DNA of 64,000 bases from the NCBI GenBank assembly GCA_951406725.2, contig OX597818.1:112344001-112408000 (forward strand), given 5' to 3'. This DNA comes from Octopus vulgaris (taxonomy: Eukaryota). Positions 26,513-34,944 of the stretch are shown here, piece by piece (positions within the stretch are counted from its first letter, which is position 1; each line of letters starts with the position of its first letter). Below the pieces are notes generated by a model. That model was not told the origin of the DNA, did not search any database, and saw only the letters and a list, made by a program, of their open reading frames with translations. A program made the position numbers and the translations under genes.

Positions 26513-26603
26513 ATCATTTCGATGATAATTATACTCACCATACGTAAGTCAGTTTACGTGTTCAATATAACATTCAGAACATTCATTTACGTATAAAGTA
26601 ATC

Positions 26604-26997
26604 CTTACTACCCACAAGGGGCTAAACACAGAGGGGACAAACAAGGACAGATAAACGGATTAAGTTGATTACATCGACCCAAGTGCGTAACTGGTACTTA
26701 ATTTATCGACCCCGAAAGGATGAAAGGCAAAGTGGACCTCGGCGGAATTTGAACTCAGAACGTAACGGCAGACGAAATACCTATTTCTTTACTACCCAGA
26801 AGGGGCTAAACACAGAGGAGACAAACAAGGACAGACAAACGGATAAAGTCGATCATATCGACCACAGTGCGTAACTGGTACGAAAGGATGAAAGGCAAAT
26901 TGGACCTCGGCGGAATTTGAAGTCAGATGGTAACGATAGATGAAATACCGCTAAGTATTTCGCCCACCGTGCTAACGATTCTGCCAGCTCGTCGCCT
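26604..26997 (-). mobile_element. SINE family 1, internally duplicated
   Basis: Homology to 10231-10470. Confidence 0.85.
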
Positions 26998-27028: not shown

Positions 27029-30000
27029 TTTACGAAAAATTTTGCCAAAAATTTTCCCCAAAAATTTTACGAAAATTTTACCCAAAGGTTTTTCGAAAAT
27101 TTTCCCCAAAAATTTTTCCTAAATTTTCACCGAAAATTTTACCCAAAAATTTTTCGAAGTTTTTGGCGAAAATTTTCCCCAAGAATTTTTCGAAATTTTT
27201 CATTGAAAATTTTACCAAAAAATTTTTGGAAAATTTTCACCAAAAATTTTTTCCAAAAATTTTTCGAAAATGTTCACCGAAAACATTTCCCAAAATTTTT
27301 CGAAAATTTTCAACGAAAATTTTCTCGAAAAACTTTACGAAAATATTTGCCGAAAATTTTCCCCAAAAATTTTACGAAAATTTTACCAAAAATTTTTTGG
27401 AAAATTTTCCCCAAAAATTTTTCCTAAATTTTCACCGAAAATTTTACCCAAAAATTTTTCGAAGTTTTTGGCGAAAATTTTCCCCAAGAATTTTTCGAAA
27501 TTTTTCATTGAAAATTTTACCGAAAAATTTTTGGAAAATTTTCACCAAAAATTTTTTCCAAAAATTTTTCGAAAATGTTCACCGAAAACATTTCCCAAAA
27601 TTTTTCGAAAATTTTCAACGAAAATTTTCTCGAAAAACTTTACGAAAATATTTGCCGAAAATTTTCCCCAAAAATTTTACGAAAATTTTCGTCGAAAATT
27701 TTACCAAAAATTTTTTGGAAAATTTTCACCAAAAATTTTTTCCAAAAATTTTTCGAAAATGTTCACCCAAAAACATTTCCCAAAATTTTTCGAAAATTTA
27801 CCCCAAATATTTTTCAAAAATTTTTACCGAAAATTTTCCCAAAAAATTTTTCACCGAATTTGACATCCCTGGCCTTCCATACTTTTTGATTTTAGCACCG
27901 CTGGCCTTCCATACTGTTTGATGTTGGCACCGCTGGCCTTCCATACTTTATGATTTTGACATCGCTGGCCTTCTATACTTCAAGATTTTGGCAGCGCTGC
28001 CCTTCCATACTTTGTGATTTTGGCATCGCTGGCTTTGTGATTTGTCGAAAATTTTTCCCAAAGATTTTTCCAAAATTTTCACCGAAAGTTGTACCCAAAA
28101 ATTATTCGATTATTTTTCCCAAAAATTTTACGAAAGTTTTCACGGAAAATTTTCCCCAAAGGTTTTTCGAAAATTTTACCCAAAAATTTTTCGAAAATTT
28201 CCCCAAAAATTTTTACCGAAATATTTTTCGAAAATTTGCACAGAAAATTTTCTCCAAAAATATTTCGAAAATTTATGTTATGGCTAAAAATAAACCTTTT
28301 GTTGGCTGCTGCTGCTGCTTTCTGTGTATATATAGAATGAATTCTGGTTTACTACTACAGTCAAGATGCCTCACCATCCACGATACACTAGTTTCTGCTT
28401 TACACTTAACAACTATGACGATGTCGACGTTTATAGACCTCAGAATTCGTTATATGGTTTTTCGAAAATGATCAGCGGAAATTTCACCGAAAATTTTTCG
28501 AAAATTTTCACAGAAAATTTTCCTCAAAAATTTTTGGAAAATTAAAAAAATTTTTCGAATATTTTTGCCGAAAATTTTCCCCAAGCTAAAATTAGATTTA
28601 TGTTAAGGCTAAAAATAGACTTTTAGTTGGCTGCTGCTGCTGCTTTCTGTGTATATATAGAGTGAATTGTGGTTTACTACTACAGTCAAGATGCCTCACC
28701 ATCCACGATACACCAGATTCTGCTTTCACACTTAACAACTATGACGATGTCGACTTTTATGCATATGGAGCATATTTGTTGTATGGTTTATCCCAAAATA
28801 GATTTTTATGTGGCTGTTGCTGCTGCTTTCTGTGTATATATAGAGTGAATTCTGGTTTACTACTACAGGCAAGGTGCCTCACCATCCACGATACACCAGA
28901 TTCTGCTTTACACTTAACAACTATGACGATGTCGACGTTTATAGACCTCAGCATATGGTGCATATTCGTTATATGGTTTTTCGAAAATGTTCACCGGATA
29001 TTTTACCCAAAAATTTTTGGAAAATTTTCTATGAAAATTTTCCATAAAAATTTTTGTAAAATTAATAATATTTTTCGAATATTTTTGCCGAAAATTGTCC
29101 CCGAGCTAAAATTAGATTTATGTTATGGCTAAAAATAGACATTCTTTTGGCTGCTGCTGCTGCTGCTTTCTGTGTATATATAGAGTGAATTCTGGTTTAC
29201 TACTGCAGTCAAGATGCCTCACCATACACGATACACTAGATTCTGCTTTACACTTAACAACTATGAAGATGTCGACGTTTATAGACCTCAGCATATGGTG
29301 CATATTAGTTATATGGTTTTTTGAAAATGTTCACCGGAAATTTTACCCAAATATTTTTCGAAAATTTTCACGGAAAATTTTCCTCAAACACTTTTGGAAA
29401 ATTAAAAAAAATTTTCGAATATTTTTGCCGAAAATTTTCCCCGACCTAAAATTAGATTTATGTTATATGTAAAAATAGACTTTTAGTTGGCTGCTGATGC
29501 TGCTTTCTGTGTATGTATAGAGTGAATTCTGGTTTACTACTTCAGTCAAGATGCCTCACCATCCACGATACACCAGATTCTACTTCACACTTAACAACCA
29601 TGACGATGTCGACGTTTATAGACCTCAGCATATGGAGCATATTCGATCTATGGTTTTTTGAAAAATTTCACCGAAAATTTTCTCGTAAAAATTTTTCGAA
29701 AATTTTCCCCAAAAATTTTTCACCGCTATTGGCACCGCTGTCCTTCCATACTTTTTGATTTTGGCACCGCTGGCCTTCCATCCTTTGTGATTTTGGCACC
29801 ACTGGCTTTCTATATTTGTAATTTTGGGACCACTGGCCTTCTGATTTTTCGGAAATTTTCCCCAAAAATTTTGCCAAAAATTTCACCGAAAATTTTACCT
29901 AAAAAGATTTCGAAAATTTTTACCGAAAATTTTTCCCAAACGTTTTTCGAAAATTTTCACCAAAAATTTTTCGAAAATTTTCACCAAAAATTTTTCGAAA

Positions 30001-33000
30001 ATTTCCCCAAGAATTTTGCCAAAATTTTCACCGAAAATTTTCCCCAAATATTTTCGAAAATTTTCACCAAAAATTTTTCGAAAATTTTCCCCAAGAATTT
30101 TGCCAAAATTTTCACAGAAAATTTTACCCAAAAATTTTTCTGAAATTTTAATCGAAAATTTTCCCCAAAAATCTTTATAAAATTTTCACCCAAAATTTAT
30201 TCCAGAAAAATTTTCGCCAAAAATATTCCCGAAAAATTTTTACAAAAATTTACACTGAAATTTTACGAAAAACTTTTTACAAAAATTTACACTGAAATTT
30301 TACGAAAAAATTTTTCGATAATTTTCACCAAAAATTTTCCCCAAAGATCTTCGAAAATTTTCACCGAAAATTTTCCCGAAAAATTTTTACAAAAATTTAC
30401 ACTGAAATTTTACGAAAAAATTTTTCGATAATTTTCACCGAAAATTTTCCCCAAAGATCTTCGAAAATTTTCACCGAAAATTTTGCACAAATTTTTCGAA
30501 CATTTTCACCGAAAATTTTCCCGAAAAATTTATGAAATATTTGGTAAAATTTTCAGTCAAAAATTTCAAAAAATTTTTGCCAAAAATTTTCACCAAAAAT
30601 TTTACGGAAATTTTCGTCGAAAATTTTAAACAAAGGCCTTTCGAAAGTTTCCCCCAAAATTTTTCCTAAATTTTCACCGAAAATTTTACCCAAAAATTTT
30701 TCGAAATTTTTGACGAAAATTTTCCCCAAAAATTTTTCGAAATTTTTCACTGAAAATTATACCAGAAAATTTTTCGAAAATTTTCACCAAAATATTTCTC
30801 CAAAAATTTTTGGAAAGTTTTCACCAAAAACATTCCCCAAAATTTTTCGAAAATTTTTCGCAAAAATTCTCCGAAATTAAAAATATTTTTCGAATAATTT
30901 TGCCGAAAATTTTCCCCGAGCTAAAATTAGATTTATGTTATGACTACAAATAGACATTCTGTTGGCTGCTGCTGCTGCTTTCTGTGTATATATAGAGTGA
31001 ATTCTGGTTTACTACTACAGTCAAGATGCCTCACCATCCACGATACACCAGATTCTGCTTTACACTTAGCAACAATGACGATGTCGACGTTTATAGACCT
31101 CAGCATATGAATTCTTGTTTGCTCCTGCAGTCAAGATGCCTCACCATCAACGATACACCAGATTCTACTTTACACTTAACAACTATGATGATGTGGACGT
31201 ATATGCATATGGAGCAAATTCATTTTATGGTTTACCCAAAAATAGATTTTTATGTGGCTGCTGCTGCATATATAGAGTGAATTCTGGTTTACTACTGCAG
31301 TCAAGATGCCTCACCATCCACGATACACCAGATTCTGCTTCACACTTAACAACTATGACGATGTCGACGTTTATAGACCTCAACATATGGAGCATATTCG
31401 TTCTATGGTTTTTTGAAAATTTTCACCGAAAATTTTCTCGTAAAATTTTTTCGAAAATTTTCTCCAAAAATTTTTCACCGATATTGGCACCGCTGTCCTT
31501 CCATACTTTATGATTTTGTCACCGCTGGCCTTCCATACTTTTTGATTTTGGCACCACTGACTTTCCATATTTGTAATTTTGGCACCACTGGTCTTGTGAT
31601 TTTTCGGAAATTTTCCCCAAAAATTTTTCCAAAAATTTCCCCGAAAATTTTACCCAAAAAGTTTTCGAAAATTTTTACCGAAAATTTTCCCCGAAGGTTT
31701 TTCGAAAGTTCTCACCAAAAATTTTTCGAAGATTTTCCCCAAATATTTTGCGAAAATTTTCACCGAAAATTTAACCCAAAACTTTTCTAAAATTTTGACC
31801 GAAAAATTTTCAACCGAAGATTTTTGGCGAAAATTTTCAGTGAAAAATTTCGAAAAATTTTTGCCGAAAATTTTCCCGAAAAATTTTTACAAAAATTTAC
31901 ACTGAAAGTTTACGAAAAAATATTTCGATTATTTTCACCGAAAACTTTACCCAAAGATCTTCGAAAATTTTCACCGAAAATTTTGCACAAAAATTTTTCG
32001 AACATTTTCACCGAAAATTTTCCCCAAAAATTTATGAACTATTTGGTAAAATTTTCAAAAATTTTACGGAAATTTTCGTCGAAAATTTTAAGCAAAGGCC
32101 TTTCGAAAGTTTCCCCCAAAAATTTTTCCTAAATTTTCACCGAAAATTTTACCCAAAAATATTTCGAAATTTTTGACGAAAATTTTCCCCAAAAATTTTT
32201 CGAAATTTTTCACTGAAAATTTAACCAAAACATTTTTCGAAAATTTTCACCCAATCATTTCTCAAAAAATTTTTGGAAAGTTTTCACCAAAAATATTCCC
32301 TAAAATTTTTCGAAAATTTTCCACAAAAGTTTTTCGAGAATTAAAAATATTTTTCGAAAATTTTCACCGAGCTAAAATTAGTTTTATGTTATGGCTATAA
32401 ATAAACTTTCAGTTGGCTGCTGCTGCTGCTGCTTTCTGTGTATATATAGAGTGAATTCTGGTTTACTACTACAGTCAAGATGCCTCACCATCCACGATAC
32501 ACTAGATTCTGCTTTACACTTAACAACTATGAAGATGTCGACGTTTATAGACCTAAGCATATGGTGCATATTCGTTATATGGTTTTTCGAAAATGTTCAC
32601 CGGAAATTTTACCCAAAAGTTTTTCGAAAATTTTCACAGAAAATTTTCCTCAAACATTTTTGGGAAATTAAAAAGATTTTTGGAATATTTTTGCCGAAAA
32701 TTTTCCCCGAGCTAAAATTAGATTTATGTTATGGCTAAAAATAGACTTTTAGTTGGCTGCTGCTGCTGCTTTCTGTGTATATATAGAGTGAATTGTGGTT
32801 TACTACTATAGTCAAGATGCCTCATCATCCACGATACACCAGATTCTGCTTTACATTTAACAGCTATGACGATGTGGACGTTTATGCATATGGAGCATAT
32901 TCGTTTTATGGTTTACCCAAAAATAGATTTTTATGTGGCTGCTGCTGCTGCTTTCTGTGTATATATAGAGTGAATTCTGGTTTACTACTACAGTCAAGAT

Positions 33001-34573
33001 GCCTCACCATACACGATACACCAGATTCTGATTTACACTTACCAACTATGACGATGTCGACGTTTATAGACCTCAGCATATGGAGCATATTCGTTCTATG
33101 GTTTTTTGAAAATTTTCCCCAAAAATTTTTCACCGATATTGGCACCGCTGTCCTTCCATACTTTGTGATTTTGGCACTGCTGGCCTTTCATACTTTGTGA
33201 TTTTGGCACCGCTGGCCTTCCATATTTGTAATTTTGGCACCACTGGCCTTGTGACTTTTCGAAAATTTCCCCAAAAATTTTTCTAAAAATTTCACCGAAA
33301 ATTTTACCCAAAAAGTTCTCGAAAATTTTTACCGAAAATTTTCCCCAAAGGTTTTTCGAAAATATTCACCAAAAATTTTTCGAAAATTTCCCCAAGAATT
33401 TTGCCAAAATTTTCACCGAATATTTTACCCAAAAAGTTTTCGAAAATTTTTACCGAAAATTTTCCCTAAATCTTTTTGGAAAATTTCACCAAAAAGTTTC
33501 CGAAAATTTTCCCCAAGAATTTTGCCAAAATTTTCACCGAAAATTTTACCCAAAAATTTTTCTGAAAATATTTGGGGAAAATTTTCAGTGAAAATTTTCC
33601 AAAAATTCTGGGGAATGTTTTTGGTGAAAACTTTCGAAAAATTTTTGGAGAAAATTTTTGTTGAAAATTTTCCAAAAATTCTTTGGTAAAATTTTCAGTC
33701 AAAAATTTCGAAATTTTTGCCAAAAATTTTCGCCAAAAATTTTACGAAAATTTTCGTCGAAAATTTATTCAAAGGTTTTTCGAAAGTTTCCCCCAAAAAT
33801 TTTTCCTAAATTTTCACCAATTTTCACCCAAAAATTTTTCGAAATTTTTGCCGAAAATTTTCCCCAAAAATATTTCGAAATTTTTCACTGAAAATTTTAC
33901 CAAAAAATTTTTCGAAAATTTTCACCAAAAATTTTCTCCAAAAATTTTTCGAAAGTTTTCACCAAAAACATTCCCCAAAATTATTCGAAAATTGTCAAGG
34001 AAAATTTTCCCCAAATATTTTTCAAAAATTTACATCGAAAATTGTCCCCAAAAATTTTTCACCGAGTTTGGCACCGAAAATTTTCTCCAAAGGTTTTTCG
34101 AAAATTTTACACAAAAATTTTTTGAAAATTTTTCCCAAAAATTTTGCCAAAATTTTCACTGAAAATTTGCCCCAAAAATTTTTCGGAAATTTTCACGGAA
34201 ATTTTCCCCGAAAATTTTCCAAAAATTTTCACAAAAAATTTTACCCAAAAATCTTTCAAATATTCTCACCAAATATTTTTTGAAAATTTTCACTGAAAAA
34301 ATTTTTTTGAAAAATTTTTCGATAATTTTCACCGAAAACTTTCCCGTAAAATTTTTCGAAAATTTTCCCCAAAATTTTTTCAGCGAATTTGGCACCCCTG
34401 GCCTTCCATACTTTTTGATTTTAGCACCGCTGGCCTTCCATACTTTTTGATGTTGGCACCGCTGGCCTTCCATACTTTATGATTTTGGCACCGCTGCCCA
34501 TCCATACTTCAAGATTTTGGCACCGCTGGCTTTGTGATTTGTCGAAAATTTTTCCCGTAAATTTTTCCAAACA
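27029..34573 (+). repeat. Composite tandem array: phased A4T4-tract DNA, 31-32-bp repeats and 11 Rep-like cassettes
   Basis: gaaaattttc-type units with a 305-bp period at 27044/27349/27654. 32-mer blocks at about 27861, 29731, 31486, 33141 and 34391. Cassette starts at 28366, 28691, 28874 (GTG), 29214, 29551, 31026, 31136, 31306, 32480, 32817 and 32999. Confidence 0.95.
32480..32593 (+). pseudogene. rep: CRESS-DNA/circovirus-like Rep N-terminal fragment (representative of 11 copies)
   Basis: MPHHPRYTRFCFTLNNYEDVDVYRPKHMVHIRYMVFRK has an MP start, RCR motif I FTLNN in an R(W/F)CFTLNNY context, and a YxVF segment at Rep-like spacing. Motifs II/III and the helicase are absent. Confidence 0.6.
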
Positions 34574-34944
34574 CGAAATTTGTGGGGAGGGGGCAGTCGA
34601 TTAGATCGACCCCAGTACGCAACTGGTGCTTAATTTATCGACCCCGAAAGGATGAAAGACAAAGTCAACCTCGGTGGAATTTGAACTCAGGACATAGCGA
34701 CGGGCGAAATACCTATTTATTTACTACCCACAAGGGGCTAACCACAGAGAGGACAAACAAGGGCAGACAAACGGATTAAGCCGATTATATCGACCCCAGT
34801 GCGTAACTGCTACTTAATTTATCGACCCCGAAAGGATGAAAGGCAAAGTCGAACTCGGCAGAATTTGAACTCAGAACGTAGCGGCAGACGAAATACCGCT
34901 AAGCACTTCGGCCGGCGTGCTAACGATTCTGCCAGCCCGGCGCC
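34574..34944 (-). mobile_element. SINE family 1, internally duplicated, with its tail split by the array
   Basis: Homology to 10231-10470. The tail terminus ttttctactct lies at 27018-27028. Confidence 0.85.

What the first reader, a model, noticed from the sequence alone, without database searches (positions are those of the whole stretch)
28276..33110. Satellite built from 11 copies of a CRESS-DNA virus Rep promoter and N-terminus
Seen: a cassette of about 170 bp recurs 11 times on the + strand. It runs ggctgctgctgc - tatatataga (about 39 nt before the ATG) - caagATG - MPHHPRYTRFCFTLNNY(D/E)DVDVYRPQHM(V/E)HIR(Y/F)MV(F/Y), then breaks into A-tract DNA or the next cassette. Known: circovirus/CRESS Reps often begin MP and carry RCR motif I as R(W)xFTLNN, followed about 20 aa later by a YxV(F/Y/C)xxE strand before motif II (HLQG). 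Tandem endogenous Rep/origin arrays exist in Nicotiana (geminivirus-related DNA). Inference: this is a defective ssDNA-virus replicon amplified by rolling-circle replication, or an endogenous viral element turned satellite, in a probable cephalopod. It could be a template for antiviral small RNAs or a Rep-decoy micropeptide. Motifs II/III, the SF3 helicase and a capsid gene were not seen, and the match rests on only about 37 aa.
Basis: partly seen in the sequence, partly recalled or inferred. Interest (0 to 1): 0.9.

Follow-up and report, generated by a model that had tools for sequence, protein, structure and literature searches.

The report
Host satellite multiplies captured virus fragment
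A short broken piece of the replication gene of a small circular DNA virus sits inside a repeat that has likely copied it passively to well over 100 copies at 36 sites in the genome, and the same genome holds other fossils of this virus group, one nearly complete, so these viruses likely infected the germ line of this animal (probably an octopus).

Summary
Observation confirmed: 11 copies on +, but only 4 keep an ATG and 35 open codons. The peptide alone hits nothing in Pfam or PDB. It is 66% identical to the N-terminus of a 104-aa Viral_Rep ORF elsewhere in the genome (E 5e-23), so the Rep identification holds. The genome also holds a near-complete CRESS fossil (TAGTATTAC stem-loop, Rep/helicase, capsid-like ORF) and other pieces, 13 loci in all. 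The cassette is not local: 227 hits in 36 clusters on 13 contigs, 201 of 206 sharing one right junction with a palindromic A-tract/32-mer repeat that mostly occurs without it. Copies drift neutrally (N/S 1.02), carry no origin stem-loop, and arrays show no fixed ends or target duplications. Best reading: one capture of a viral fragment, then passive spread with the repeat. Rolling-circle amplification and a decoy peptide are not supported; small-RNA use is untested. Whether the repeat predates the capture is unresolved.

The parts
27033..34556 (.). Patchwork satellite array: palindromic A-tract units, 32-mer blocks and Rep cassettes, with a loose higher-order repeat of about 1.65-1.86 kb
28276..28460 (+). 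Rep cassette 1 (ATG 28366; frame change after about codon 26)
28583..28789 (+). Rep cassette 2 (ATG 28691; frameshifted, 14-aa ORF)
28792..28979 (+). Rep cassette 3 (GTG at 28874; 35 open codons)
29103..29319 (+). Rep cassette 4 (ATG 29214; 35 open codons)
29443..29656 (+). Rep cassette 5 (ATG 29551; 35 open codons)
30918..31109 (+). Rep cassette 6 (ATG 31026; breaks off after codon 28 into cassette 7)
31109..31233 (+). Rep cassette 7 (ATG 31136; no TATA, frameshifted); left end approximate
31236..31411 (+). Rep cassette 8 (ATG 31306; 35 open codons; 66% aa identity to the C14 Rep N-terminus)
32369..32585 (+). Rep cassette 9 (ATG 32480; 35 open codons, reads on into satellite)
32709..32914 (+). 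Rep cassette 10 (ATG 32817; frameshifted)
32917..33104 (+). Rep cassette 11 (ATG 32999; stop at codon 11)
27869..28033 (+). 32-mer tandem block 1 (5.2 copies)
29729..29841 (+). 32-mer tandem block 2
31480..31595 (+). 32-mer tandem block 3
33135..33250 (+). 32-mer tandem block 4
34388..34530 (+). 32-mer tandem block 5
33554..33718 (-). Inverted A-tract segment inside the array
   Evidence: inverted pairs I4, I10-I25
26602..26996 (+). Interspersed host repeat left of the array (SINE-like; label recalled)
   Evidence: (D11-D14)
34595..34944 (+). Same host repeat family right of the array
   Evidence: (D11-D14)

Best explanation
The cassette is a roughly 215-bp piece holding a TATA box and the first 35 codons of a CRESS-DNA virus Rep gene, likely captured once into a dispersed A-tract/32-mer repeat and since then likely copied passively along with that repeat. 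Shown: Rep identity, shared junctions, genome-wide spread, neutral drift, no origin, no helicase or capsid in the arrays, and other fossils of related viruses in the genome. Inferred steps: (1) viruses of this lineage infected the germ line repeatedly and left fragments at DNA breaks, joined without target duplication (shown for C14: 412 bp inserted, 39 bp lost); (2) one fragment was joined to the palindromic A-tract repeat; (3) the repeat expands locally by unequal exchange or template switching between its short palindromic units, which would give the patchwork order and inversions, and seeds new loci as variable-length templated insertions; (4) the viral piece has no function as a protein.
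For: Rep identity: PF02407 hit at G000:C14:64337847-64338092 (E 1.3e-19; 0 of 14 control genomes), 5.1e-23 for the ORF, circovirus Rep structures at 2e-14, 23/35 identity to the window peptide. Six window peptides score 16-31 bits against a profile of 154 library Reps, best shuffle 3.4 (1091 of 1200 shuffles reported). Differences from the C14 Rep average 11.4/4.9/16.6 at codon positions 1/2/3, the pattern of a once-functional gene. One capture: 201 of 206 hits that reach the right end run into A-tract satellite within 30 nt, and most listed left ends share one motif (output partly cut). Spread: 227 hits, 36 clusters, 13 contigs; all 89 genome-wide exact 16-mers lie in the fetched stretches. 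Cargo: only 187 of 648 exact 32-mer words lie in Rep-bearing stretches, and nine fetched loci have the satellite without the cassette. Neutral: 106 indel-free copies give N/S 1.02 per possible change, 230/219/211 changes by codon position, 9 distinct stop alleles, and 64 of 106 keep ATG plus an open frame. Local expansion: nearest neighbour in the same cluster for 41 of 93 copies, 5.8 expected. No origin: no exact nonamer in the window array and only 5 inexact, AT-only stems in the stretches scanned; cassette upstream folds no better than shuffles (z 0.3-1.1) while the C15 origin does (z -4.1). No conserved termini or adjacent target duplications were evident in 76 listed segments, read by eye.
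Against: The order of events is not shown: 32-mers in Rep-free arrays are not more diverged (10.1%) than in Rep-bearing ones (11.2%), so the repeat need not be older than the capture. That Rep-free sample is only nine loci on two contigs, picked by exact match. The origin of the A-tract and 32-mer is unknown. The copying mechanism is inferred from anatomy only. The exact parent virus was not found (nearest fossil about 70% nt). The upstream part of the cassette shows no significant similarity to the fossils, so its viral origin is unproven. 24 of 139 near-full-length counts are not at issue, but 33 of 139 near-full copies with indels were left out of the N/S count.
Confidence: 0.72

Rival explanations
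1. The whole patchwork (A-tract, 32-mer and Rep piece) descends from one defective viral or virus-satellite replicon that was amplified by rolling-circle replication and integrated many times, later losing the Rep piece at most loci.
For: Patchwork order and inversions. Related viruses integrated repeatedly. Rep-free arrays are not older by 32-mer divergence. The GC-rich run lies where the 3' stem arm lies in the fossils.
Against: No nonamer stem-loop in the arrays. The arm resemblance is not significant (p 0.04-0.23 for C12, 0.12-0.49 for C15). A-tract and 32-mer match none of the fossils (best E 0.035 on short low-complexity pieces; none at 0.01), and the 32-mer pattern has no exact match in viral contigs. 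Spacers between cassettes vary freely.
Confidence: 0.12
2. The array is a non-autonomous HUH (Helitron- or Replitron-like) transposon family moved in trans by a Rep.
For: Dispersed on 13 contigs without target duplications; hairpin-prone DNA (29% of an A-tract block lies in perfect 10-nt palindromes against 0-3% in flanks); a helicase-less Rep ORF exists at C14.
Against: No conserved termini. The C14 ORF is single-copy and is a truncated insert in a DDE transposase copy; its relative P0034 continues past that point. No autonomous element was found.
Confidence: 0.06
3. The copies are kept as a template for antiviral small RNAs against this virus lineage (could coexist with passive spread).
For: High copy number, inverted copies that could give double-stranded RNA, a retained TATA box, and repeated germline infection by related viruses. 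Precedent: siRNAs from tandem endogenous geminiviral repeats in yam (PMC5014472, passages). One run guessed to be RNA has 3 low-depth contigs on the cassette, two matching the flanks of the single C13 copy (weak).
Against: No test was possible. The copies drift at the same rate at all sites, though that does not exclude an RNA-level role. Only 105 coding nt are covered.
Confidence: 0.15
4. The copies make a 36-aa dominant-negative Rep decoy peptide.
For: TATA, ATG and a stop right after codon 36 in some copies.
Against: N/S 1.02, stops, frameshifts and lost starts; the piece ends before motif II and lacks most of the nuclease fold.
Confidence: 0.02

Closest known systems
Geminivirus-related DNA (GRD) of Nicotiana and yam EGV1 (PMC5014472, passages read)
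   Same: Truncated, degenerate ssDNA-virus rep in multiple direct repeats; neutral drift after integration and purifying selection between separately integrated lineages.
   Different: Each GRD unit carries an origin-like sequence and the repeats cluster on one or two chromosomes. Here there is no origin, the piece is only 35 codons, and it rides in a non-viral-looking satellite at 36 clusters on 13 contigs of an animal.
CRESS endogenous viral elements of invertebrates (PMC4231630, passages read)
   Same: Many independent Rep fragments without target duplications; that paper reports circovirus-like sequences in two molluscs placed near Nanoviridae. The 13 non-satellite loci here are of this kind.
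   Different: Those were independent single insertions with no shared flanks; here one fragment was multiplied more than 100-fold.
Circovirus Rep endonuclease (PF02407; PDB 2hw0, 7kii)
   Same: Motif I strand, and motifs II and III in the C14 fossil; E about 2e-14. The C15 fossil is ambisense with a TAGTATTAC stem-loop.
   Different: At most 54% identity for full-length matches in the library and 33-50% to viral contigs. The helicase is not hit by PF00910. Family not assigned.
Replitrons (PMC10288648, abstract and opening read) and Helitrons
   Same: HUH Rep related to CRESS Reps in a eukaryote genome; dispersed copies.
   Different: No autonomous element, no conserved termini or terminal repeats; the Rep piece is non-functional.

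Membership tests
CRESS-virus Rep (PF02407) | RCR motif I near the N-terminus | tested here: met
   FTLNN aligns with library Reps; 16-31 bits against 3.4 for shuffles
CRESS-virus Rep (PF02407) | Direct Pfam or PDB hit of the 36-aa peptide | tested here: not met
   0 families for 7 of 7 copies tested, 0 PDB; the link runs through the C14 ORF
CRESS-virus Rep (PF02407) | Motifs II and III in the cassette | tested here: not met
   C14 Rep residues 39-104 hit no array; present only in the C14 fossil
CRESS-virus Rep (PF02407) | Helicase domain | tested here: not met
   Absent from arrays; present at 8 other loci, up to 51% identical to library Rep C-termini; PF00910 finds none
Endogenous viral element | Chromosomal, flanked by host DNA, heritable | tested here: met
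   Flanks; independent runs and other organism labels
Endogenous viral element | Purifying selection before, neutral drift after integration | tested here: met
GRD-type rolling-circle array / defective replicon | Origin stem-loop with nonanucleotide in each unit | tested here: not met
GRD-type rolling-circle array / defective replicon | Regular head-to-tail units of viral sequence | tested here: not met
   variable satellite spacers, half-copies and inversions
GRD-type rolling-circle array / defective replicon | Circular or episomal forms | not testable with these tools
   needs inverse PCR, RCA or circle sequencing
Helitron / Replitron non-autonomous element | Conserved termini | tested here: not met
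   76 segment boundaries listed, ends vary, read by eye
Helitron / Replitron non-autonomous element | Autonomous multi-copy HUH transposase in the genome | tested here: not met
   one PF02407 match of 3 candidates; 150 of 173 candidates scored
Circoviridae (for the parent virus lineage) | Ambisense genome with NAGTATTAC-type stem-loop (criterion recalled) | tested here: met
   C15 fossil; the C12 fossil has the nonamer on the capsid strand, downstream of it
Circoviridae (for the parent virus lineage) | Rep groups with circovirus Reps in a tree of named references | not testable with these tools
   nearest relatives are unnamed; tree had no named references
Circoviridae (for the parent virus lineage) | Circovirus-type capsid | tested here: inconclusive
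   no Pfam hit; Atlas top clusters 0.90, PF02443 on 29-31% of members

The most novel reading that the evidence does not exclude
A host satellite captured the promoter end of a germline-infecting CRESS virus gene and turned it into a multi-locus, heritable small-RNA template against an undescribed cephalopod virus lineage, shared across several related species.
Probability: 0.15. Interest if true: 0.85.

Novelty: new variant of a known kind. Interest (0 to 1): 0.62.

Why it matters
Non-retroviral virus fossils are usually few per genome (PMC4231630, passage). Here one fragment reached 139 near-full copies by riding a satellite, with no origin or enzyme of its own, which is a different route from the Nicotiana arrays. 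The fragment also led to 13 other fossil loci, including a slightly over-unit-length genome, which point to a CRESS lineage with no close named relative and tie it to this host; ten literature searches found no report of CRESS fossils in cephalopods. The fossils give direct handles for finding the living virus, and the 36 clusters are a ready test set for how satellites seed new loci and whether amplified viral DNA feeds small-RNA defence.

Tried and rejected
Pfam, PDB and PHROGs on the window peptide: nothing. Three searched hits with long open frames around the cassette (C14:63.37, C7:78.48, C18:36.84 Mb) were satellite, not longer Rep. PF00910 in the genome: 0 of 24 candidates. Rfam on five loci: only microsatellite-driven matches below gathering scores. 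Idea that the cassette starts at the origin nick site and keeps the 3' stem arm: position fits, similarity not significant, dropped. Upstream homology to C14 and C15: p 0.2-0.9. Test that the satellite is older than the capture: not supported. Close free-living relatives: none in viral contigs or metagenome contigs for the C15 Rep; exact patterns absent from viral contigs; longer relatives of P0034: none of 139 candidates. One clade for 8 fossil helicases: neither shown nor rejected (2 changes, p-AU 0.41). Literature: searches (listings); PMC13282606 term search found no 'virus', 'viral' or 'satellite' in the main text (supplements not read); PMC6011040 no 'virus'; PMC10193959 passages, and no cephalopod term in its 2 held supplements; PMC9615429 supplement lists CRESSV14 as mollusc-associated, host unknown, not compared here. 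A recalled genome-wide survey of endogenous CRESS Reps (J Evol Biol 2021) is not held and could list cephalopod hits. Earlier scan findings: none.
Full report
Observation. The window holds 11 copies of the cassette, all on +. Ten have TATATATAGA 39 nt before the start codon. Four keep ATG and 35 open codons; the others have a GTG start, frameshifts, an early stop or a break. They lie in an array at about 27033-34556 made of palindromic A-tract units of 12-13, 24 and 37 bp and five 32-mer blocks, with an inverted segment. The window is G000:C5:112344001-112408000 in a 2.8-Gb assembly.

Is it Rep? The peptide alone finds nothing in Pfam (7 of 7 copies tested) or PDB. A genome search with PF02407 gave one match, on C14 (E 1.3e-19; none in 14 control genomes). 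It is a 104-aa ORF with motifs I, II and III (motif definitions as in PMC10288648, opening passage), E 5.1e-23 in Pfam and about 2e-14 to circovirus Rep structures. The window peptide matches its first 35 residues at 66%. Against a profile of 154 library Reps, six window peptides score 16-31 bits and shuffles at most 3.4; those Reps were found with the C14 ORF, so this is not fully independent. Differences between the copies and the C14 ORF fall mostly on third codon positions (11.4/4.9/16.6; about 70% nt identity). The two therefore come from different, once-functional viral genes.

Other fossils. The C14 piece is a 412-bp insert that replaces 39 bp of a transposase copy, with no target duplication. 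A library relative, P0034, continues beyond the C14 stop, and searching with it found a locus on C15. That locus is a slightly over-unit-length viral genome: a repeated intergenic region (89.7% identical ends), TAGTATTAC in a 9-bp stem (z -4.1), a Rep that starts like the cassette and is broken between motifs I and III, a helicase part, and an Arg-rich ORF on the other strand. The helicase part is up to 51% identical to library Rep C-termini but is not hit by PF00910; its Walker motifs are read from recall. The capsid call is a lead only. Its helicase and capsid found 8 and 6 loci, 13 distinct non-satellite loci with C14. Four helicases form a supported clade; all eight as one clade is neither shown nor rejected. 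No close free-living or named relative was found.

Spread. The cassette is genome-wide. In the fetched stretches there are 227 hits of 40 nt or more, 139 near full length, 170 covering motif I, in 36 clusters on 13 contigs. All 89 exact 16-mer matches in the genome lie in these stretches, so the census is close to complete. Of 206 hits that reach the right end, 201 run straight into A-tract satellite; most listed left ends share one motif (output partly cut). No array continues into motif II. That points to one capture. The satellite is larger than the Rep-bearing subset: 187 of 648 exact 32-mer words lie in Rep-bearing stretches, and nine fetched loci have A-tract and 32-mer only. Contigs from runs under three other organism labels hold the cassette, some across the satellite junctions; labels are coded, so how many species that is cannot be said.

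Selection. Among 106 indel-free copies (33 near-full copies with indels left out), 60% of possible synonymous and 62% of possible non-synonymous changes are seen (p 0.88), N/S is 1.02, and 64 keep ATG and an open frame. Copies differ by 8.2% within and 10.9% between stretches, and nearest neighbours are enriched in the same cluster (41 of 93, 5.8 expected). A peptide function is very unlikely.

Mechanism. A rolling-circle replicon needs an origin. None was found: no exact nonamer in the window array, only five inexact AT-only stems in the stretches scanned, and no stable fold upstream of the start. The GC-rich run sits where the stem's 3' arm lies in the fossils, but the similarity was not significant. 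Array ends vary and show no adjacent target duplication by eye, which argues against a transposon with defined ends. The A-tract is rich in short palindromes (29% against 0-3%) and arrays mix modules in both orientations. I infer local growth by unequal exchange or template switching and dispersal as variable-length templated insertions, with the viral piece as cargo. Against this: 32-mers in Rep-free arrays are no more diverged than in Rep-bearing ones (10.1% and 11.2%; small biased sample), so the satellite is not shown to be older, and its own origin is unknown.

Expression. Untested. One run guessed to be RNA gave three low-depth contigs, two matching the flanks of the single C13 copy. This is a weak hint only.

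Comparison. The closest case is geminivirus-related DNA in Nicotiana, whose units carry a truncated rep and an origin-like sequence in clustered direct repeats and drift neutrally (PMC5014472, passages). This array is like it in being an amplified, neutral rep fragment, but fails its origin criterion and is dispersed. CRESS fossils are known in arthropods and in two molluscs (PMC4231630, passages) as independent single insertions. Ten library searches found no report for cephalopods; one recalled survey is not held and unread supplements may bear on this.

Verdict. Real, and viral in origin for the coding part. A new variant of a known kind: a CRESS Rep fragment multiplied by a dispersed satellite, within a rich fossil record of an unplaced virus lineage. 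Interest 0.62.

Noticed in passing
L071:4804-7122 (G000:C15:38111804-38114122): Slightly over-unit-length endogenous CRESS genome: intergenic region repeated at both ends (89.7% identical), TAGTATTAC in a 9-bp stem, Rep on + broken between motif I and motif III, helicase part open, Arg-rich capsid-like ORF on -.
   Followed up: yes
L011:1383-1794 (G000:C14:64337729-64338140): 412-bp Rep endonuclease fragment with a TATA box replaces 39 bp of a young ISXO2/Merlin-like transposase copy (PF12762 below cut-off; sister copies 86-96% identical).
   Followed up: yes
G000 C11:25.61, C3:10.37, C30:3.38, C1:220.79, C1:161.98, C17:60.80, C15:76.33, C31:6.46, C31:3.48, C12:6.09, C6:7.17 Mb: Further helicase or capsid fragments of related viruses; C12 also keeps a TAGTATTAC stem downstream of its capsid. 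Four helicases form a clade at 98/96.
   Followed up: partly
P0006, P0156, P0034: Unnamed assembly proteins closest to the window peptide and the C14 Rep; they look frameshifted, so may be fossils in related animals.
   Followed up: partly
L041:5115-5490, L044:4680-5058, L045:5400-5775: Three single cassettes on C3, C7 and C1 share a left join to a very common inverted-repeat host element (1626 candidates), suggesting one event later duplicated between chromosomes.
   Followed up: partly
L069:4970-5300 (G000:C13:71.356 Mb): Contigs of a run guessed to be RNA match this single copy and its unique flanks at depth about 4; possible transcription, unproven.
   Followed up: partly
L063, L064 (G000:C4:6.04 Mb): Cassettes are interleaved with a second, different 12-bp satellite.
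   Followed up: no
G000 genome-wide: ISXO2/Merlin-like transposase family is abundant, with several long open frames (151 matches, 150 of 475 candidates scored).
   Followed up: no
window:36310-36972: 333-bp tandem duplication, 91% match.
   Followed up: no
window:35240-35744: Long (GAA)n tract about 700 bp right of the array.
   Followed up: no
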